A stretch of DNA of 64,000 nt from Escherichia coli (lineage in GTDB: Bacteria; Pseudomonadota; Gammaproteobacteria; Enterobacterales; Enterobacteriaceae): NCBI RefSeq assembly GCF_013315695.1, contig NZ_CP054353.1, one strand, 5' to 3'. How positions within the stretch are numbered: the stretch's first letter is position 1; the number at the start of each line of letters is the position of its first letter. Of this stretch, positions 45,075 to 53,495 are shown one piece after another. Below the pieces are notes generated by a model. It was given only the letters and a program-made list of their open reading frames with translations, ran no database searches and had not been told where the DNA came from. The position numbers and the translations under genes are program-made.

Positions 45075-46172
45075 TCAGCCGCTAAAGACGTTACCTGCGC
45101 CCGGGGCGGTTTTCAGCACCCAGACACGTCCATAGTGGTTGTACCAACCTGCGCGGTGTCCGGCTTCCGGCCCGATCCCTTGATAGATATCGAAGTGTTG
45201 GCCTTTGATTGCGCCACCGACATCCAGCGCCACCATCAGACGCAATTCGTACTGACCGTTAAATTTGCCGTTATTATCCAGCAGCGGCACTTCTGCCAGC
45301 AAGGTAGTACCTGGCGGAATAATTGAACGATCGGAGGCAACAGAAGCACGGCCAACCAGCGGCACCGCACTTGCCCCTTTCACCGGTGCAAAAGATTGCG
45401 GTTTAAAGAAGACGAAAGACGGGTTCTGTTCCAGCAGCTCGCGAACCTCGGCTTCACTGTGTGTTTCACCCCAGTGACGAATCGCCTGCATCGACATATC
45501 TTCTTTTTTCACTTCGCCACGGTCGATCAGCACCTTACCAATGCTGCGATAGGCATGACCGTTTTTCCCTGCATAGCTGAAAAAGTTAAGCGGACTGCCA
45601 TCACCAAAGTCGATATACCCACTACCCTGCACATCCATAATGAAGTTATCCATCAGAGAGTTGCTGTAAGCGAGGATGTATTTATCGCTCAATGCCCCCG
45701 CGTAGATCTCCGCACGAGACGGCAGACGACCACGTTTTGGCGGCATACGGTAAATCGGATACTGAAACTCGCCCTGGCGGGTATGGCGCGCCTGAATTAC
45801 TGGCGTGTAATAACCGGTAAACTGCACGTTACCATAGTTGTCGGCACCTTCCATCTGCCAGGCATCAATGCCGAACTGGCGCATATTGCGGGTATCACCG
45901 CCTGCGCGCAGCCACTCTTGCACCGCGTTATAAACATTACTCTGGTTGCCATACAGACGCGGTGACGAATTACGGATATGGTTAATTTGCTCGGCAAAAT
46001 CACCGGCGTTAATCGGCGCGCCAACGGCATCTGGCTGGTTCACCAGAGAGAAAGGCTGGGTAAATTTCCCGTCTTTATATTGCTGTCCGCGATCGGTTGG
46101 TTTGGAAGAGCAGGCGGCAAGCATTGCCACAACCGTGCCCATAAGAAGGTACTTTACCCAACGTCCTTTCAT
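45075..46172 (-). CDS. mltA: membrane-bound lytic murein transglycosylase A
   Basis: Track ORF runs to 46454 through the tRNA promoter and first tRNA; true start is almost certainly MKGRWVKYLLMGTVVAMLAACSS (lipoprotein signal) at 46172, giving 365 aa. Confidence 0.92.
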   Translation of the reverse strand: MKGRWVKYLLMGTVVAMLAACSSKPTDRGQQYKDGKFTQPFSLVNQPDAVGAPINAGDFAEQINHIRNSSPRLYGNQSNVYNAVQEWLRAGGDTRNMRQFGIDAWQMEGADNYGNVQFTGYYTPVIQARHTRQGEFQYPIYRMPPKRGRLPSRAEIYAGALSDKYILAYSNSLMDNFIMDVQGSGYIDFGDGSPLNFFSYAGKNGHAYRSIGKVLIDRGEVKKEDMSMQAIRHWGETHSEAEVRELLEQNPSFVFFKPQSFAPVKGASAVPLVGRASVASDRSIIPPGTTLLAEVPLLDNNGKFNGQYELRLMVALDVGGAIKGQHFDIYQGIGPEAGHRAGWYNHYGRVWVLKTAPGAGNVFSG

Positions 46173-46339
46173 TGTTCTCTTCTTCAGGTTAAAAAATAAG
46201 GCGCAACGAAGATAACAAACCGCCGCGTTTAATGAAATGAGCAGCCTCTCCCTGACGCAAATTTTGCACAAAAAATAGGCTTTAGTGATTTGTTTTTGCT
46301 CAAAATCATACCAAATCCGTGATCTGGGTAAAAAAAAGG

Positions 46340-46367
46340 TTGCATGAAAACGCGAGCGGAGTATAGT
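46340..46367 (+). promoter_or_regulatory. sigma70 promoter of the tRNA-fMet cluster
   Basis: TTGCAT, 16-bp spacer, TATAGT, followed by GC-rich discriminator GCGCATCC typical of stringently controlled stable-RNA promoters; about 13 bp upstream of the first tRNA. Confidence 0.7.
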
Positions 46368-46380
46368 GCGCATCCACGGA

Positions 46381-46457
<77 letters not shown>

Positions 46458-46490
46458 ATTAAAATTTGATGAAGTAAAGCAGTACGGTGA

Positions 46491-46567
<77 letters not shown>

Positions 46568-46600
46568 ATCAAAATTTAATGAAGTAAAGTAGTACGGTGA

Positions 46601-46677
<77 letters not shown>

Positions 46678-46694
46678 ACACTTATGATGCTGAT

Positions 46695-46729
46695 AAACCG
46701 CAATGTGTTTCACAGATTGCGGTTTTTTT
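46695..46729 (+). terminator. rho-independent terminator of the tRNA-fMet operon
   Basis: aaaccgcaat...attgcggttt hairpin followed by T-run. Confidence 0.8.
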
Positions 46730-46755
46730 GTATTTAAAATCTTTGTTCGCTGAAC

Positions 46756-47712
46756 TCACAACACGTTTTTTATCTCCCTTCCTGCGAAGTAATCAATTAT
46801 CGACTGGGCAACGTGTATCCCGGTTTGCTGGTATGACTCAACGGTGGCTGCCGCGATATGCGGCGTTGTAATGATATTTTTGGCATGTAGCAGTGGGCTA
46901 AATTGCGCCAACGGTTCAGAGCTAAACACATCCAGCGCCGCAAACACATTTCGTTCTTCAATCACCTGAAGTAAAGCGCCCTCATCCAGCAACTTTCCCC
47001 TTGCGGCATTGATGATCAGAGCACCATTGCGCATCATCGACAAATATTTATGACTAATGAAGTTCTCCAGCTCCGGAGAAAATGGCAAAAGAACGATGAT
47101 GACATGAGACTGCATAAAGATATCTTCAATTGATACGAACTGAACTCCATCTTTGCCTGCGGCCTGGAAATCGGGTTGTTTGTCAAAAGCTAAAAGCTCA
47201 ACATCAAAACCAGATAACCTTTTCGCCAGTGTTTTGCCAATATTGCCGTAGCCAAGCAGGCCAATACGTTTACCTTGTAACTCGCAGCCATGCGACTCGC
47301 CCCAATAACCATTTTGCATCGCATGATAGCTACCGGGGATATTTCTCATGCTCGCGAAGATAAGTCCAATGATAAATTCCGCAACCGCATTTGAATTAAT
47401 CCCAACCGCATTATTGACAACAATACCGGATTGCTGTGCCGCACGAAGATCAATATTGTCTATCCCCGTCCCGAATCTCGATATTATTTTCACACCAGAC
47501 AGCAATGATAGCGTGTCCGCCTGATAACAATCTTTTCCGGCGATGACCGCGCAAATAGATTCTCGTAATGCAGTGGATTCTGATTTAAGCAGATGCTCCA
47601 CATTATTCTTAATAATAAGATTAAAATTATTCTCTCTTAGCAACTTGCTGGCGGAAACACAGCGTGCTGAAAAGCTGGGGACGGTGACCAGAACATTTTT
47701 CATAGCTGACAC
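46756..47712 (-). CDS. D-isomer-specific 2-hydroxyacid dehydrogenase family protein (accessory island)
   Basis: 318-aa ORF with NAD-binding GxGxxG (GLLGYGNIG) and catalytic-domain layout of SerA/GhrA-type dehydrogenases; AT-rich codon usage. Confidence 0.75.
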   Translation of the reverse strand: MSAMKNVLVTVPSFSARCVSASKLLRENNFNLIIKNNVEHLLKSESTALRESICAVIAGKDCYQADTLSLLSGVKIISRFGTGIDNIDLRAAQQSGIVVNNAVGINSNAVAEFIIGLIFASMRNIPGSYHAMQNGYWGESHGCELQGKRIGLLGYGNIGKTLAKRLSGFDVELLAFDKQPDFQAAGKDGVQFVSIEDIFMQSHVIIVLLPFSPELENFISHKYLSMMRNGALIINAARGKLLDEGALLQVIEERNVFAALDVFSSEPLAQFSPLLHAKNIITTPHIAAATVESYQQTGIHVAQSIIDYFAGREIKNVL

Positions 47713-47773
47713 TCACTTCAAAGAACGCCACCCCAAAAGATGGCGTGACCGGTTACTGTTTTATATTCTAAAA

Positions 47774-48370
47774 TTATGAGTTTGCTTTAATACCGAGCGC
47801 ACCTCCTGGATGATATAAGCCGAAATCAGCACGAGTAAACTTTTTCAATTCGGAGAGCGCAAGCGCCACCGCATCACCAACAACCAGAACGACTGTTGAT
47901 GAGCATGACGGCGCTAAACCTAAATTATCCGCCTCACTTTTTACGGGAATTTCAACGGATAAATCACAACTTATCGCAAGCGATGAGTGATGACTGCGTG
48001 TAAAAGAGATCAAATAATTACCCATTTTTTTCAGACTAGGCAGTGTCGCCAGGATTTCCGCCGTCTCACCACTGTTTGAAATAAGAATAACAACATCGTC
48101 TTTCGCCACCATTCCAAGGTCGCCGTGTACCGCTTCCGTACCGTGAACAAAAAACGAGGGAGTTCCGGTACTGGCAAAAGTTGCTGCGAGTTTTCTGGCA
48201 ATAATACCGGACTTACCAACACCAATAAAAACAACTTTTCCCTGACAAGATTGTAATACTTTAATTAAATTTGCGACCTCCGAAAGGGGGGAATCAATAA
48301 CTTCTTCAACTGCTTTATATTCGTTACGCATAAAATGTTTAATGAGATGGATAAGATCCGTGCTGTTCAT
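47774..48370 (-). CDS. SIS-domain sugar-phosphate isomerase (KpsF/GutQ-like SIS domain without CBS domains)
   Basis: 198-aa ORF with SIS motifs GVGKSG...SNSGET; closest in memory to arabinose-5-P isomerase or hexulose-6-P isomerase SIS domains. Confidence 0.7.
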   Translation of the reverse strand: MNSTDLIHLIKHFMRNEYKAVEEVIDSPLSEVANLIKVLQSCQGKVVFIGVGKSGIIARKLAATFASTGTPSFFVHGTEAVHGDLGMVAKDDVVILISNSGETAEILATLPSLKKMGNYLISFTRSHHSSLAISCDLSVEIPVKSEADNLGLAPSCSSTVVLVVGDAVALALSELKKFTRADFGLYHPGGALGIKANS

Positions 48371-48372
48371 TT

Positions 48373-49554
48373 TTATTTTCCTTGATTAATATTTTTAATT
48401 ACACTCGCAAGACGCGTAAGCCCCATATATAATTTTTCTCGACCGCAGGCCAGGTTCAGACGAAGGTAGCCCTCCCCCTCCGTTCCATAGACATGCCCCG
48501 CCATAATGCCCACTTTGCCTTCATGAATTAATCGACTGTAAAATTCATCAAAAGGATAACCAATAGCAGAACAATCTATCCAGGAAAAATAGCAACCATC
48601 AGCTGGCCTTACGATCAATTCTGGAATATTTTCATTCAGATACTGCTGGGTGAATTGAATGTTAGAGGCAATATGTACCTTTAATGACTTTAACCATCCC
48701 TCACATTCGTTATAGGCAATAATAGTTGCAATTATATTCAGTACTGATGGGGAGTTTACAAAATCGCGATACCTCGATATCGTTCTGAACTTATGATTAA
48801 AATTATCGTCAGTTGAAATCATATACGATCCTGTTAGTGCAGGAACATTAAATGTTTTCGATATCGAGTTAAATACTACTACTTTTTCTTTTTTTATTTT
48901 AAGCGCGGATGTAAAGCTACGATTAAAAACAAAATCACTATGGATTTCATCTGAACATAACCAGACATTATGCCTTGTACAGCTTGCAGCGATTTTATGC
49001 AGTTCTTCTTCCGACCAGACTGTTCCTGTCGGGTTATGAGGATTACATAATAACACCATCTTTGCGCCTTTAATCTTAAGTTCAAAATCTTGCCAGTTGA
49101 TAGCGTAGCCCCCCTCATTTTTTATAATCAAAGAGGCTGTCAGAATATTTCGCTCGCTATGTTTAATTACATCAAAAAATGCATTATAGACAGGTGTAAA
49201 AACGAGAATATTATCACCATGTGATGTCAATAACTCTATTGCTTTTGCAATAGAGTACATCACACTGGGGCTATAGGTGATCCATTCTGGTTTGATTTCA
49301 GTTTTATATTGTTGATGATACCAGTTTACTATCGCATTCAGATAGTCATCATGCTGCCAACGGCTGTACCCTAAAATCGGGTGTTCCAGACGTTTTCTTA
49401 ATGCCCTGATGATAGCGTCCGGTATCGGAAGATCCATATCTGAAATAGAGAATGGTAATACATCTTTTACACCAAATCTGTCCTCGCAAAAGTCCCATTG
49501 GGTACAATATGTTCCTTTGCGGGAAACAGGAGTATTAAAAACATCCATCAGCAT
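48373..49554 (-). CDS. PLP-dependent C-S lyase / aminotransferase, MalY/PatB family
   Basis: 393-aa ORF that aligns by eye along its length with E. coli MalY (TQWD, LPF.ISDMD, LLC.P.NPTG, SDEIH, SK.FN.PAL). Confidence 0.75.
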   Translation of the reverse strand: MLMDVFNTPVSRKGTYCTQWDFCEDRFGVKDVLPFSISDMDLPIPDAIIRALRKRLEHPILGYSRWQHDDYLNAIVNWYHQQYKTEIKPEWITYSPSVMYSIAKAIELLTSHGDNILVFTPVYNAFFDVIKHSERNILTASLIIKNEGGYAINWQDFELKIKGAKMVLLCNPHNPTGTVWSEEELHKIAASCTRHNVWLCSDEIHSDFVFNRSFTSALKIKKEKVVVFNSISKTFNVPALTGSYMISTDDNFNHKFRTISRYRDFVNSPSVLNIIATIIAYNECEGWLKSLKVHIASNIQFTQQYLNENIPELIVRPADGCYFSWIDCSAIGYPFDEFYSRLIHEGKVGIMAGHVYGTEGEGYLRLNLACGREKLYMGLTRLASVIKNINQGK

Positions 49555-51128
49555 ATCCCCATGTAGTTATCCATATCCCGACGCAAGGCGATGACTTTAG
49601 TACCGATAATGACTTGTAGGGTATTTTGATCAAGTTTAACAACCGCAATCCCGCCAGCTCTTTTTATTGCAACTTCGTCAATCAATCCCATATCTGCGAT
49701 TGTTAAACGTAAACGAGTTACGCAATTATCCAGTGACTTAATATTCTCTTTACCACCAAGTGCCTTAACCATCTGCTCCGCCGCTTGCAGCTCTGATTTA
49801 TCAGGAGTTGGGATATCCGCTATAGCCGTATCTTCGTGAACGTTCAGCGTGACAGGACTGGACTCTTCACGGCCTACGGTCATCAGGTTAAATTTAAGAA
49901 TGGTCCAACGGAACACAAAGTAATAAATGAAGAAATAGGCCACTTCGACACACACCGCGATCGGCCAACCTGTTCTTGTGCCACGCAATACGCCAAAGCT
50001 AATAAATTGAATCAGATCGCCAGTAAATCCCATCTTCACGCCCATATATGGCAGAACCATGTTAGCGAATCCATTCATAAAGGCATGGAAGACAAACAGC
50101 AGTGGACTGACAAATAAGAACAGAAACTCAATCGGTTCGCTGACGCCGCCAATAATCACCGTAAGCACCCCGGAAATAAGCAATGCTTTGATAGCCTTTC
50201 TGTTTTGAGCATGAGCAGTGCGATACATCGCCAGCGCGGCACCAGCCAGACCATACTGAATCATCAGTTTGCCCTGCTCCATTTTCCCCGCCAAATCCAG
50301 CGGAATGACCGCATTCTCTTTAACGTATGCCATAAACATGTTCAGGGTGCCGTAATATTCTTCGCCGCCAATCACAGCCGAACCGCCGATTGGCGTAAAG
50401 CGGAAAACTGACGTCACCAGATGGTTTAAGCCAAAAGGAATCGTCACGCGTTCGGCAACTGCATAGAAGAAATAACCAACAGGACCGGAAGTTGATATCC
50501 AGTGGCCAATGAGCATGAAGAGATTGAAAAACGGCGGCCAGATAAAAGGAATGATCAGACCAAATCCACTCATCACAATCAGTGTAATGATAGGCACCAG
50601 ACGTGGGCCGCTATAAAAACCTAATGATTCAGGAATGCGTAAATTAACGATCTTTTTATACATGCTGGCGACTAATAACCCAGCAACAATTCCCCCTAAC
50701 ACGCTGGTATTGTAGGACTGGATCCCCAGAATGATGGTTTGCCCATGTGTCGACATTTGGTCAGCAGCGACCAATAAGTCGTGCTGTTTAAGATAAAAGT
50801 TCGTTCCCAGATGCATCGCCATAAAACCAATTAAGCCAGAAAAAGCGCCATAGGCTTTATCCTCTTTCTCTTTTAATAATCCTAAGGGAATTGCTATCGC
50901 AAACAATACAGGTAAATTAACAAAGGCAAACAAACCAAGGCTAACAATGAAATCAAGTATGGTTTTAATTATTGGAATAGTCAGAAATGGAATTAACTTT
51001 GCCATATCATCACTGGCTAAACCACTTCCCAGCCCTAGCATCATGCCACATACACTTAGCAGAGCAATGGGATACATAAATGCCTTCCCCAGGCTCTGAA
51101 AAAAACTCCAGGCTTTCTTTTGTTTCAT
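49548..51128 (-). CDS. PTS glucose-family EIICB component, MalX-like
   Basis: 526-aa polytopic ORF with C-terminal EIIB phosphocysteine motif (NCVTRLRL); strong resemblance to MalX/PtsG EIICB. Confidence 0.8.
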   Translation of the reverse strand: MKQKKAWSFFQSLGKAFMYPIALLSVCGMMLGLGSGLASDDMAKLIPFLTIPIIKTILDFIVSLGLFAFVNLPVLFAIAIPLGLLKEKEDKAYGAFSGLIGFMAMHLGTNFYLKQHDLLVAADQMSTHGQTIILGIQSYNTSVLGGIVAGLLVASMYKKIVNLRIPESLGFYSGPRLVPIITLIVMSGFGLIIPFIWPPFFNLFMLIGHWISTSGPVGYFFYAVAERVTIPFGLNHLVTSVFRFTPIGGSAVIGGEEYYGTLNMFMAYVKENAVIPLDLAGKMEQGKLMIQYGLAGAALAMYRTAHAQNRKAIKALLISGVLTVIIGGVSEPIEFLFLFVSPLLFVFHAFMNGFANMVLPYMGVKMGFTGDLIQFISFGVLRGTRTGWPIAVCVEVAYFFIYYFVFRWTILKFNLMTVGREESSPVTLNVHEDTAIADIPTPDKSELQAAEQMVKALGGKENIKSLDNCVTRLRLTIADMGLIDEVAIKRAGGIAVVKLDQNTLQVIIGTKVIALRRDMDNYMGIC

Positions 51129-51159
51129 GTGGGTTATCTCATATAAATGTTATATATAA

Positions 51160-51984
51160 TTAGTCCATTAATACTTTGGTACGAATAGAGAGATATAGTT
51201 TTTCTTCTAAAATTAATTCATATTTAAAAGTGGCATACAGATACCGTTCAATTTCATGAATTGCGCGCTGTAAAAGGATGTCCTTTTCAAGAAACTGTTC
51301 ATAGATATCACCAATATCTTTCTGTTTTATTTTTTCATTGCATAACACGCGACTTGAAAAATATTTAAGGTGTATCATGAACCTGGAATAATTAAATGAA
51401 CTTCTGTCCACCTTTCTGTTATAAACAACTTCAATAAGCCCCGTGATTATTTGCGACAACTCAATAATCCGTACTGATTCATAATCAACTGAATTTTCAT
51501 AATTATTTAAAATATGCAATGCTATAAAACCAATCTCATCATCAGGAAGTTGAACGCTGAATTGCTCATTAATGATAGTTAATGCATCGCGACTTATCGC
51601 ATACTCTGCTTTGTACAACGCTTTGATTTCATCAAGGAAAACATTATTAATTTGTATGCCTGAAGCGACTCTGGATATTGCATTCGAAATGTGATCAGCA
51701 AGAATCAATAGTAGCGATGGATTGAGATTTTTTTCGAGATTGTTCTCCGCATATTGCACTATTTTTTCGGCAACAAAAACATACTCAATATCCACATGTT
51801 CAATCAATTTGTAGAGTTTATTTTTTTGTTCATTTCTGACATAAAAAATCCGGTTAGCCGGATGCTCAGGGACCGACATTCCATATTTTTTGTTGTAACC
51901 GACGCCAGGCCCAGAAATGATAACCTCCTGTCCATTCATCGATGCCTGTACACAATTATTGTTCATGACTTTTTCGATGATCAT
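51160..51984 (-). CDS. BglG/LicT-family transcription antiterminator (CAT RNA-binding domain + PRDs)
   Basis: N-terminus MIIEKVMNNNCVQASMNGQEVIISGPGVGY matches the co-antiterminator domain signature; track ORF starts 19 codons upstream (52041) inside the leader terminator, and GGAG precedes the ATG at 51984. Confidence 0.7.
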   Translation of the reverse strand: MIIEKVMNNNCVQASMNGQEVIISGPGVGYNKKYGMSVPEHPANRIFYVRNEQKNKLYKLIEHVDIEYVFVAEKIVQYAENNLEKNLNPSLLLILADHISNAISRVASGIQINNVFLDEIKALYKAEYAISRDALTIINEQFSVQLPDDEIGFIALHILNNYENSVDYESVRIIELSQIITGLIEVVYNRKVDRSSFNYSRFMIHLKYFSSRVLCNEKIKQKDIGDIYEQFLEKDILLQRAIHEIERYLYATFKYELILEEKLYLSIRTKVLMD

Positions 51985-51995
51985 TCCATGGCTCC

Positions 51996-52068
51996 AAAAA
52001 AAAAGGCAAGGCACGTCAGAAGTAATAACTACTTCAAACATTGCCTTGCCTGATTTAACAGTTACAAG
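51996..52068 (-). promoter_or_regulatory. RAT (ribonucleic antiterminator) overlapping a rho-independent terminator in the antiterminator leader
   Basis: Minus strand CTTGTAACTGTTAAATCAGGCAAG resembles the BglG/LicT RAT consensus (GGATTGTTACTG...CAGGCAAAACC); its 3' half forms the 5' arm of hairpin GGCAAGG...CCTTGCC followed by T9. Confidence 0.6.
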
Positions 52069-52241
52069 ATGATTAACTAATGCGTATACATTACACGGAA
52101 TTGTGCTTAATTAAAGAGATGGTCGGCTTATTTTTCAAGCCGACATTCAAATATCCGACATCAGTCACAAAACCAGCGTCTAATATTCAGGTAAATGTTA
52201 TCTATTCAACGAAATATAAATTCATTGAATAAATAAAAACA

Positions 52242-53495
52242 TTATCCCCTTCTCGCCAGCGTCGCCCCATCGGCAAAATACGCTTTAATTCCCGCAAGAA
52301 TAGACTCCGCAACTTCCTGCTGGAAAGTCGCCGTTTTCAGTTTACGCTCTTCCTCAACGTTACTGATAAACGCCGTTTCGACCAGAATGGAGGGAATATC
52401 TGGTGCCTTTAGTACGGCAAACCCGGCCTGTTCAACTTGATTTTTATGCAGCTTGTTGATTTTACCGAGCTTATTCAGCACCGCTTTACCAAACTTCAGG
52501 CTGTCAGCAATGGTCAGCGACTGCACCATATCGAACATGGTGTGGTCGACATAGCGGTCACCGCTTTTGCTTACGCCACCAATCAAGTCCGAGGCGTTCT
52601 GGGTTTGTGCCAGATATTTTGCCGCAGTACTGGTTGCGCCTTTGGTTGAGAGCGCAAACACCGAGGAACCGCTCGGCTGGCGACTGGTAAAGGCGTCGGC
52701 ATGGATAGAGACAAACAAGTCAGCACGCTGTTTCTGGGCTTTTGCTACGCGCACTTGCAACGGAATGAAGATGTCTTCATTGCGCGTCATGTACACCTTC
52801 ATATTGCCCTCTTTCTCGATCAGAGAGCGCAGACGGCGAGCTATTTGCAATACCACGTCTTTTTCGCGTGTTTTGTATTTCCCCACCGCACCGGAGTCTT
52901 CGCCACCGTGGCCAGGGTCAAGCATAATGACAATCGGACGATCCCGCCCAGCTTTACCCGGTTGTGGACCACTTTGTGCTGGCGGCACCTGCTTTTCGAG
53001 GTCGCCTTTGTTGTAATCCTCCAGCAGCGCCAGCAGCGGGTCCTGCATGTCCTGAGCATTGGCAGGATAGAGATCCATCACCAGACGCTCTTTAAACCCG
53101 GCGACCGGAGCAAGGGCAAACAGCTGCGGTTTTACGTTTTGCTTTAACTCAAAAACCATCCGCACGGTTTGCGGGTCAAACTGCCCGACGCGCGCCGACT
53201 TGATGAACGGGTCATCAGCACGAATTTGTGCCGCCATCCCCTTGAGCACTGAGTTCAGGTTTACATCTTCGATATCCACCACCACGCGTTCAGGGTTACT
53301 CAACGCGAACTGCTTATATTTCAGCTGACGATTAGATTCTACCGTCACACGGGTGTAGCTGGACGCAGGCCAGACGCGCACCGCCACGACCTGGCTGACC
53401 GCAGCCAGACTGACCTGACTTACGCTCAATAGCCACATGGCACCCGCGCCTTGCAGTAAACGACGACGGCTGATTGCAGTGTTGGATCCTGACAT
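52242..53495 (-). CDS. amiC: N-acetylmuramoyl-L-alanine amidase AmiC (Tat-exported)
   Basis: Amidase_3 domain; N-terminal twin-arginine signal ([11 protein letters not shown]); track ORF is 5 codons longer, probable start MSGSNTAI. Confidence 0.9.

What the first reader, a model, noticed from the sequence alone, without database searches (positions are those of the whole stretch)
48373..51128. A second MalX/MalY-like pair with different regulatory wiring
The PTS EIICB and the PLP lyase align by eye with MalX and MalY, which are adjacent in the K-12 malI-malXY locus (MalY also acts as a MalT antagonist there). Here the pair is fused to a BglG-type RNA antiterminator instead of a LacI-type repressor and is extended by two more enzymes, suggesting a paralogous module recruited to a different substrate and control logic.
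Basis: partly seen in the sequence, partly recalled or inferred. Interest (0 to 1): 0.5.

Follow-up and report, generated by a model that had tools for sequence, protein, structure and literature searches.

The report
Known accessory sugar-uptake operon beside metV
This is a real second MalX/MalY-like transporter-enzyme pair, but it belongs to an already described, horizontally acquired five-gene E. coli operon (c3405-c3409 of the CFT073 metV island). The sugar it takes up is still unknown, and its MalY-like enzyme lacks the surface that MalY uses to bind MalT.

Summary
Window 48373-51128 (minus strand) encodes a PTS EIICB that is 42% identical to K-12 MalX and a PLP lyase that is 37% identical to K-12 MalY, both over full length. 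They are genes 2 and 3 of a five-gene operon: BglG/LicT-type antiterminator, EIICB, lyase, SIS-only sugar-phosphate isomerase and 2-hydroxyacid dehydrogenase.

The operon lies in a 5.6-kb low-GC insert between tRNA metV and amiC. A canonical RAT hairpin overlapping an intrinsic terminator sits in the leader.

The operon is not new. It is 96-99% identical to the CFT073 PAI-metV genes c3405-c3409, and a 2026 paper on strain BEN2908 tabulates the same five ORFs with the same comparisons. The isomerase has near-identical solved structures (5UQI, 5VHU). The operon occurs in 1689 of 5426 complete E. coli genomes, whereas malXY is core (5411 of 5426).

It is not a rewired copy of malXY. Its EIICB is 70% identical to the C. 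difficile CD3027-CD3031 counterpart, and the antiterminator-EIICB-lyase-SIS order is shared with Firmicutes.

None of the eight MalY residues that contact MalT is conserved, so a MalT-antagonist role is unlikely. The substrate is unknown. Interest is low to moderate.

The parts
46679..52240 (.). Accessory insert (5562 bp, GC about 37-46%) between tRNA metV and amiC. It replaces the 71-bp K-12 spacer. No integrase gene and no homology to the tRNA-flank DNA at its far end.
   Evidence: Homology to K-12 ends at window 46678 and resumes at 52241. GC profile. Every gene in the insert is accounted for by the operon.
52042..52070 (-). RAT (ribonucleic antiterminator) hairpin, AUCUUGUAACUGUUAAAUCAGGCAAGGCA. 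Its 3' half overlaps the 5' arm of the terminator.
   Evidence: Sequence read. Homologous RATs found in Citrobacter, Enterobacter, Enterococcus termitis, C. difficile, Terrisporobacter and Solobacterium. In the alignment 93.7% of cells are paired and 2 pairs show compensatory changes.
51996..52050 (-). Intrinsic terminator of the leader: stem GGCAAGGCA...UGCCUUGCC followed by U9. It ends 12 nt before the antiterminator start codon.
   Evidence: MFE fold -30.1 kcal/mol, z -3.7. Citrobacter shows a compensatory change (GGCAAGACA / TGTCTTGCC).
51160..51984 (-). BglG/LicT-family transcription antiterminator (274 aa; CAT domain plus PRD1 plus PRD2). The longer ORF that starts at 52041 begins inside the terminator loop and is not the real start.
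   Evidence: Pfam CAT_RBD and PRD; NCBIfam LicT model aligned over residues 1-268. PDB LicT PRD structure 1TLV aligned over residues 57-269. His98, His157 and His205 are conserved; Arg268 replaces the fourth histidine. RefSeq start.
49548..51128 (-). PTS EIICB of the glucose family, MalX-like subfamily (526 aa). No EIIA domain.
   Evidence: EIIB Cys469 within NCVTRLR and EIIC motif GVSEPIEF. 70% identity to the C. difficile counterpart, 43% to MalX.
48373..49548 (-). MalY/PatB-family PLP-dependent C-S lyase (391 aa). Its start overlaps the EIICB stop and its stop overlaps the SIS start.
   Evidence: The PLP lysine and other core residues are invariant, while the MalT-contact residues are not conserved.
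47774..48370 (-). SIS-only KpsF/GutQ-like sugar-phosphate isomerase (198 aa, no CBS domains); equivalent to c3406.
   Evidence: A near-identical 198-aa chain is solved as PDB 5UQI/5VHU (E 9e-123). 98% identical to the CFT073 protein.
46756..47703 (-). D-isomer-specific 2-hydroxyacid dehydrogenase, closest to short-form 3-phosphoglycerate dehydrogenases (315 aa).
   Evidence: Found with this module only in E. coli and Citrobacter.
46696..46730 (.). Hairpin AACCGCAAT...ATTGCGGTT followed by a T-run, lying between metV and the end of the dehydrogenase gene. Probably a two-way terminator.
   Evidence: Sequence read. This is inference; it was not detected by the scan.

Best explanation
This is the accessory PTS operon known as c3405-c3409(/c3410) of PAI-CFT073-metV. 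In this strain it sits alone between metV and amiC, without the neighbouring type VI secretion cluster.

Regulation (shown at sequence level). Transcripts start upstream of a leader in which a RAT hairpin overlaps an intrinsic terminator. Without substrate, the EIICB is expected to phosphorylate PRD1 of the antiterminator (His98/His157). The antiterminator then stays inactive and transcription stops at the U-run. With substrate, phosphate drains to the sugar. The antiterminator, probably also HPr-phosphorylated on His205, binds the RAT, blocks terminator formation, and lets RNA polymerase read through all five genes. The phosphorylation steps are inferred from the BglG/LicT family.

Uptake (inferred). 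The EIICB has no EIIA domain, so it should use Crr (EIIA-Glc). The Firmicute versions of the module carry their own Glc-family EIIA.

Metabolism (inferred, substrate unknown). The phosphorylated product is processed by the PatB-type PLP lyase and the SIS isomerase. These are the only two enzymes conserved with the transporter across phyla. My working guess is a sugar carrying an alpha-amino-acid-type moiety. The lyase would remove that moiety by beta-elimination, and the isomerase would then convert the sugar phosphate to a ketose phosphate. The enteric-only dehydrogenase would handle a 2-oxo or 2-hydroxy acid product.

The lyase is not expected to antagonise MalT. The module was acquired horizontally from a low-GC lineage and is not a duplicate of malXY.
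For: Identity with the known operon:
- The five proteins are 96-99% identical to those next to amiC in CFT073.
- c3405-c3410 are named as the conserved PTS block of PAI-CFT073-metV (PMC2831201).
- GR 19 of strain BEN2908 lists the same five ORFs with the same percent identities (PMC12928451).

Regulation:
- CAT and PRD domains.
- RAT overlapping the terminator.
- RAT pairing 93.7% with compensatory changes.
- Compensatory change in the terminator stem in Citrobacter.
- Only 31 nt separate the antiterminator and EIICB genes, so the single leader controls the whole operon.

Horizontal origin:
- GC 37-46% against about 54% in the flanks.
- Clean insertion relative to K-12.
- Identity to C. difficile vs K-12: EIICB 70% vs 43%, lyase 50% vs 37%.
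- The same gene order is seen in C. difficile, Terrisporobacter, Enterococcus termitis, Clostridium, Massilicoli, Solobacterium, Enterobacter and Citrobacter.

Functional coupling:
- 72 of 80 species-representative loci of this lyase subfamily have a MalX-like EIICB immediately upstream.
- All 10 antiterminator-type loci also carry the SIS gene.
- The only other recurrent gene in Firmicutes is a Glc-family EIIA.
- Natural in-frame lyase-SIS fusion proteins exist in some E. coli and Shigella.

MalT:
- The eight MalY contact residues A84, C181, D182, E185, S218, N219, A221 and R222 (PMC10427625) are E, E, E, H, L, K, K and K here.
- Vibrio furnissii MalY, which carries only D182C and S218V, already fails to repress.

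Catalysis: the PLP lysine, Asp200, Asn172, Tyr121 and Arg363 are invariant across the alignment.
Against: - No substrate is known, so the metabolic steps are guesses.
- The isomerase is reported to be an arabinose-5-phosphate isomerase in vitro (Mosberg 2011; only the title was verified; the details are from my memory). This does not obviously fit a hexose PTS pathway.
- The C. difficile orthologue MalY (CD3029) is described as a cysteine desulfhydrase in vitro and as essential (PMC6143707). That could mean a role in sulfur metabolism rather than sugar catabolism.
- No sigma-70 promoter was called upstream of the RAT on the minus strand.
- The antiterminator lacks the fourth conserved histidine (Arg268), so its control by HPr may differ from that of LicT.
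- All regulatory steps are inferred from sequence, not measured.
Confidence: 0.8

Rival explanations
1. One reading: an in-genome paralogue of malXY that E. coli duplicated and then rewired to a BglG-type antiterminator and new enzymes.
For: Full-length homology to MalX (42%) and MalY (37%) in the same gene order. malXY is present in nearly every E. coli genome.
Against: The EIICB is 70% identical to C. difficile and 71-78% to Enterococcus termitis and Enterobacter ENT03, against 43% to MalX. The lyase is 50% vs 37%. The insert is low in GC. The antiterminator-EIICB-lyase-SIS order and the RAT already exist in Firmicutes. Only 31% of E. coli genomes carry it.
Confidence: 0.05
2. The lyase keeps MalY's second job: it binds MalT and lowers maltose-regulon expression when the operon is induced, giving cross-talk between the two systems.
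For: It belongs to the same family and fold as MalY, which is its best PDB match (1D2F/8BOB).
Against: 0 of 8 MalT-contact residues are identical. Small or neutral contact residues are replaced by charged ones: A84E, C181E, E185H, S218L, N219K, A221K. V. furnissii MalY, with only two changes in the patch, does not repress.
Confidence: 0.05
3. The operon mainly supplies arabinose 5-phosphate for KDO or capsule synthesis, acting as a third or fourth arabinose-5-phosphate isomerase. The PTS and lyase would be incidental.
For: The SIS protein's best model hits are the KdsD, KpsF and GutQ isomerases. Arabinose-5-phosphate isomerase activity is reported for c3406 (title verified; details from memory).
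Against: The SIS gene is strictly linked to the antiterminator, EIICB and lyase in 10 of 10 loci, including Gram-positive species, which to my knowledge make no KDO. It is translationally coupled to the lyase and sometimes fused to it. E. coli already has KdsD and GutQ. From memory of Mosberg 2011, deleting c3406 alone did not affect mouse colonisation.
Confidence: 0.07
4. The module serves cysteine and sulfur metabolism: it takes up a sulfur-bearing compound, and the lyase releases sulfide or a thiol. Carbon catabolism would not be its purpose.
For: PatB-family enzymes are C-S lyases. C. difficile MalY (CD3029) has cysteine desulfhydrase activity in vitro and its expression responds to cysteine (PMC6143707 and PMC5767170).
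Against: PTS transporters of the glucose family act on sugars. PRD antiterminators respond to the cognate sugar. In-vitro cysteine desulfhydrase activity is a common side reaction of this family, as E. coli MalY itself shows.
Confidence: 0.2

Closest known systems
c3405-c3410 operon of PAI-CFT073-metV (E. coli CFT073); listed as GR 19 in APEC strain BEN2908
   Same: The same five genes in the same order, next to amiC. Proteins are 96-99% identical. Published descriptions exist.
   Different: In CFT073 a type VI secretion cluster lies between metV and the operon. In this window the operon directly abuts metV, a configuration found in 596 genomes out of 1689 carriers.
malI-malXY locus of E. coli K-12
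   Same: EIICB followed by a PatB-type PLP lyase. Full-length homology of 42% and 37%. Neither has an EIIA.
   Different: K-12 uses the LacI-type repressor MalI, has no SIS or dehydrogenase gene, and its MalY carries the MalT-binding patch that is absent here. malXY is a core locus, whereas this operon is accessory.
C. difficile CD3027-CD3031 operon ('glucose-maltose PTS' plus malY)
   Same: Order is antiterminator, EIICB, lyase, SIS. Identities are EIICB 70%, lyase 50%, SIS 49%. The RAT sequence is homologous.
   Different: C. difficile has its own EIIA and no dehydrogenase. Its RAT-terminator units lie between the antiterminator and EIICB genes, in 3-4 tandem copies, rather than once upstream of the antiterminator.
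bglGFB / LicT / SacY antitermination systems
   Same: CAT-PRD-PRD regulator, a RAT overlapping an intrinsic terminator, and an adjacent cognate EII.
   Different: The cognate transporter is a MalX-like EIICB, not a beta-glucoside or sucrose EII. The fourth conserved histidine is Arg in E. coli and Citrobacter.

Membership tests
BglG/LicT/SacY transcription antiterminators | N-terminal CAT RNA-binding domain | tested here: met
   PF03123, E 1.3e-14, residues 1-55
BglG/LicT/SacY transcription antiterminators | Two PRD domains with four conserved phosphorylatable histidines | tested here: inconclusive
   Pfam calls PRD1. PRD2 is covered by the LicT model (residues 1-268) and by PDB 1TLV (residues 57-269). 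His98, His157 and His205 are present, but the fourth position is Arg268.
BglG/LicT/SacY transcription antiterminators | RAT target overlapping an intrinsic terminator in the leader | tested here: met
BglG/LicT/SacY transcription antiterminators | Substrate-dependent antitermination controlled by the cognate EII and HPr | not testable with these tools
   Needs reporter and phosphorylation assays
MalX (PTS maltose/glucose EIICB, TIGR02004 / PRK10110) | EIIC plus EIIB(Glc) domains with a phosphorylatable Cys and no EIIA | tested here: met
MalX (PTS maltose/glucose EIICB, TIGR02004 / PRK10110) | Score above the curated family cut-off | tested here: not met
   537.3 bits against a 632.2 cut-off (TIGR02004); 524.9 against 665 (PRK10110). 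42% identity to MalX.
MalY/PatB family C-S lyases (TIGR04350) | Score above the cut-off, with the PLP lysine and core residues present | tested here: met
   366.5 bits against a 340 cut-off. K231, D200, N172, Y121 and R363 are invariant.
MalY in the strict sense (MalT antagonist) | MalT-contact patch: A84, C181, D182, E185, S218, N219, A221, R222 | tested here: not met
   0 of 8 identical; the residues here are E, E, E, H, L, K, K, K
MalY in the strict sense (MalT antagonist) | Located in a malI-malXY locus under a LacI-type repressor | tested here: not met
   The upstream regulator is a CAT-PRD antiterminator. MalI-type loci form a separate class.
KpsF/GutQ/KdsD arabinose-5-phosphate isomerases | SIS domain followed by a tandem CBS pair | tested here: not met
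   SIS domain only, 198 aa. TIGR00393 scores 191.9 bits against a 203.7 cut-off.
KpsF/GutQ/KdsD arabinose-5-phosphate isomerases | Arabinose-5-phosphate isomerase activity | not testable with these tools
   Reported for c3406 by Mosberg 2011 (paper not held; title seen). The near-identical chain is solved as 5UQI/5VHU.
PAI-CFT073-metV | c3405-c3410 block next to amiC | tested here: met
PAI-CFT073-metV | Type VI secretion cluster between metV and the PTS block | tested here: not met
   Only 78 bp separate metV (ends 46677) from the dehydrogenase stop (46756)

The most novel reading that the evidence does not exclude
The MalX-like EIICB and MalY-like lyase form an old, cross-phylum two-gene catabolic cassette. 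It is adjacent in 72 of 80 species-representative loci and is plugged into three different regulator types: LacI-type MalI, RpiR-type, and BglG-type antiterminator. If so, MalY's primary role, including in K-12, would be to process a still unidentified PTS substrate, and MalT inhibition would be a later enterobacterial add-on.

The antiterminator-type version seen here is shared with C. difficile CD3027-CD3031. It needs only the lyase and the SIS isomerase downstream of uptake, and natural lyase-SIS fusions exist. That makes it a promising handle for identifying the substrate.
Probability: 0.4. Interest if true: 0.6.

Novelty: already known. Interest (0 to 1): 0.3.

Why it matters
The operon is common in extraintestinal E. 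coli lineages, including CFT073 and ST131. From memory of Lloyd 2009 and Mosberg 2011, which I could not read here, deleting c3405-c3410 reduced mouse urinary-tract fitness. Its C. difficile counterpart contains the gene most strongly induced in biofilm, which is also reported to be essential.

The natural substrate of any MalX/MalY-type pair is, to my knowledge, still unknown. Identifying the compound this module imports would explain a long-standing orphan locus in K-12 and a niche-fitness factor in two gut pathogens. As a sequence finding, however, it adds little. The genes, their similarity to MalX, MalY and BglG, and the isomerase structure are already published.

Tried and rejected
- The Rfam scan of 46000-53000 found only the three tRNAs, with no match at the RAT leader. 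The RAT was therefore identified by eye and by comparison between species.
- The promoter scan found no sigma-70 site on the minus strand upstream of the RAT, so no promoter is assigned.
- The 293-aa ORF starting at 52041 was rejected as the antiterminator start, because that ATG lies inside the terminator loop.
- The main papers could not be read: Mosberg 2011 and Lloyd 2009 (tried under a PMC id I recalled from memory). Their experimental claims are quoted from memory only.
- I looked for extra conserved enzymes next to the Firmicute modules as clues to the substrate. Only a Glc-family EIIA recurs. The transketolase and phosphomutase genes next to the Terrisporobacter module were seen once only.
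- I looked for integrase genes or att-like repeats at the insert ends and found none.
- The Granulicatella locus turned out to be a different arrangement, with another PTS family plus a peptidase, and was not used.
Full report
**What is there.** The window is E. coli chromosome and is 100% identical to strain MSB1_4I over the region. On the minus strand, between the initiator-tRNA genes metZ/W/V (46381-46677) and amiC, lie five tightly packed genes:
- a CAT-PRD antiterminator (51160-51984)
- a PTS EIICB (49548-51128)
- a PLP lyase (48373-49548)
- a SIS-only isomerase (47774-48370)
- a D-2-hydroxyacid dehydrogenase (46756-47703)

The finding's coordinates cover exactly the EIICB and the lyase. 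The domain assignments are clear.

**Check of the observation.** The EIICB is 42% identical to K-12 MalX over 523 residues, and the lyase is 37% identical to MalY over 386 residues. The EIICB's best models are the MalX models, but it scores below their curated cut-offs. The lyase passes the PatB-family cut-off. malXY itself is present in 5411 of 5426 complete E. coli genomes. This is therefore a true second pair, neither the resident locus nor a fold-only resemblance.

**Regulatory wiring.** The leader upstream of the antiterminator contains AUCUUGUAACUGUUAAAUCAGGCAAGGCA (52070-52042). This is a canonical RAT. Its 3' half forms the 5' arm of a strong terminator, GGCAAGGCA...UGCCUUGCC followed by U9 (-30.1 kcal/mol, z -3.7).

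The ORF-list start at 52041 lies in the terminator loop. The real start is the ATG at 51984, as in RefSeq.

Homologous RATs occur in Citrobacter, two Enterobacter genomes, Enterococcus termitis, C. difficile, Terrisporobacter and Solobacterium. In a nine-sequence alignment, 93.7% of cells pair and two pairs show compensatory changes. The terminator stem also carries a compensatory change in Citrobacter.

The antiterminator keeps three of the four LicT-type histidines (His98, His157, His205). In E. coli and Citrobacter it has Arg268 at the fourth position.

The EIICB has the EIIB cysteine (Cys469) and the EIIC GxxEPxEF motif but no EIIA. Crr is therefore the likely phosphoryl donor. Consistent with this, the Firmicute versions of the module carry a Glc-family EIIA.

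**Already known.**
- CFT073 carries the same five genes next to amiC, with 96-99% protein identity. There they follow a type VI secretion cluster.
- The block is the c3405-c3410 'PTS system, maltose/glucose specific' part of PAI-CFT073-metV (PMC2831201).
- A 2026 paper on strain BEN2908 lists the same five ORFs as GR 19 with 36% identity to MalY, 41% to MalX, 30% to BglG, 52% to KdsD and 32% to SerA (PMC12928451).
- The isomerase is the subject of Mosberg et al. 2011. That paper is not held, so I verified only its title.
- A near-identical 198-residue chain is solved as 5UQI/5VHU.
- The operon is present in 1689 of 5426 complete genomes. In 596 of them it directly abuts metV, as it does here.

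**Origin.**
- The insert (46679-52240) replaces 71 bp of the K-12 spacer and has 37-46% GC, against about 54% in the flanks.
- Compared with the C. difficile counterpart, the EIICB is 70% identical, the lyase 50% and the SIS protein 49%. The figures against K-12 MalX and MalY are 43% and 37%.
- I analysed eighty species-representative loci of this lyase subfamily (analysed). In 72 of them a MalX-like EIICB lies immediately upstream on the same strand.
- The loci fall into three regulatory classes:
  - BglG-type antiterminator plus a stand-alone SIS gene: 10 loci, with EIICB 62-97% identical to this one.
  - RpiR-type regulator: about 24 loci, mostly Bacillaceae, Enterococcus and Lactococcus.
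  - Divergent LacI-type MalI: about 19 loci, Enterobacterales and Vibrionaceae.
- The dehydrogenase accompanies the module only in E. coli and Citrobacter.

The 'different wiring' is therefore real, but it was inherited with the imported module. It was not created by rewiring malXY in E. coli.

**MalT question.** The cryo-EM study of the MalT-MalY complex names eight MalY contact residues: A84, C181, D182, E185, S218, N219, A221 and R222. It also notes that V. furnissii MalY, which differs at only D182 and S218, does not repress (PMC10427625). The paralogue here has E, E, E, H, L, K, K and K at those positions, while the catalytic residues are invariant. A MalT-antagonist role is very unlikely.

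**Function.** Regulation by substrate-controlled antitermination is well supported at sequence level. The substrate is unknown.

The cross-phylum core is EIICB, lyase and SIS (plus an EIIA). The lyase and SIS genes are translationally coupled, and in some strains they are fused in frame. My working model is uptake and phosphorylation of a sugar that carries an amino-acid-type moiety. The lyase would cleave it and the isomerase would then convert the sugar phosphate. The dehydrogenase would be an enteric add-on. This model is inference only.

The C. difficile orthologue MalY is reported as a cysteine desulfhydrase in vitro and as essential. A sulfur-related role therefore remains a serious alternative.

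**Verdict.** What this analysis adds:
- the RAT/terminator
- loss of the MalT-binding patch
- the link to Firmicute modules
- the three-way classification of regulators for MalX/MalY-type pairs

Noticed in passing
L006 4994-5410 (C. difficile); also L020 and L021: Between the antiterminator and EIICB genes, C. difficile carries 3-4 tandem copies (about 104 bp each) of a complete RAT-plus-terminator unit. The copy number differs between strains: 4 in L006 and L020, 3 in L021.
   Followed up: partly
P0003, P0005, P0008 (E. coli and Shigella proteins): Some strains encode in-frame lyase-SIS fusion proteins of 550-592 aa. They arise either by read-through of the lyase stop or by a short deletion. 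This suggests the two enzymes work together.
   Followed up: partly
window 51181-51183 (antiterminator residue 268): The fourth conserved PRD histidine (LicT His269 position) is Arg in E. coli and Citrobacter, but His in Enterobacter, C. difficile and Terrisporobacter.
   Followed up: partly
window 48373-49548 compared with L008 7001-8209: E. coli has two allele classes of the operon. Between them the lyase is much more diverged (87% aa identity) than its neighbours (94-98%), and it is also the least conserved of the five proteins against Citrobacter (68.5% aa identity). In the second class the lyase is 11 residues longer and overlaps the SIS gene.
   Followed up: partly
window 45075-46454 (minus strand): The 459-aa ORF in the mechanical ORF list is mltA (real gene 45075-46172) extended upstream through the tRNA-Met genes. 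This is an artefact of ORF calling.
   Followed up: yes
window 46560-46960: Only 596 of about 1689 genomes that carry the operon have it directly next to metV. In the remaining carriers this junction is not contiguous; in CFT073 a type VI secretion cluster lies between (the other genomes were not examined).
   Followed up: partly
L012 9488-12815 (Terrisporobacter mayombei): Split transketolase genes and a phosphogluco/phosphomannomutase gene follow the module on the same strand. This could hint at a pentose-phosphate output, but it was seen in one genome only.
   Followed up: no
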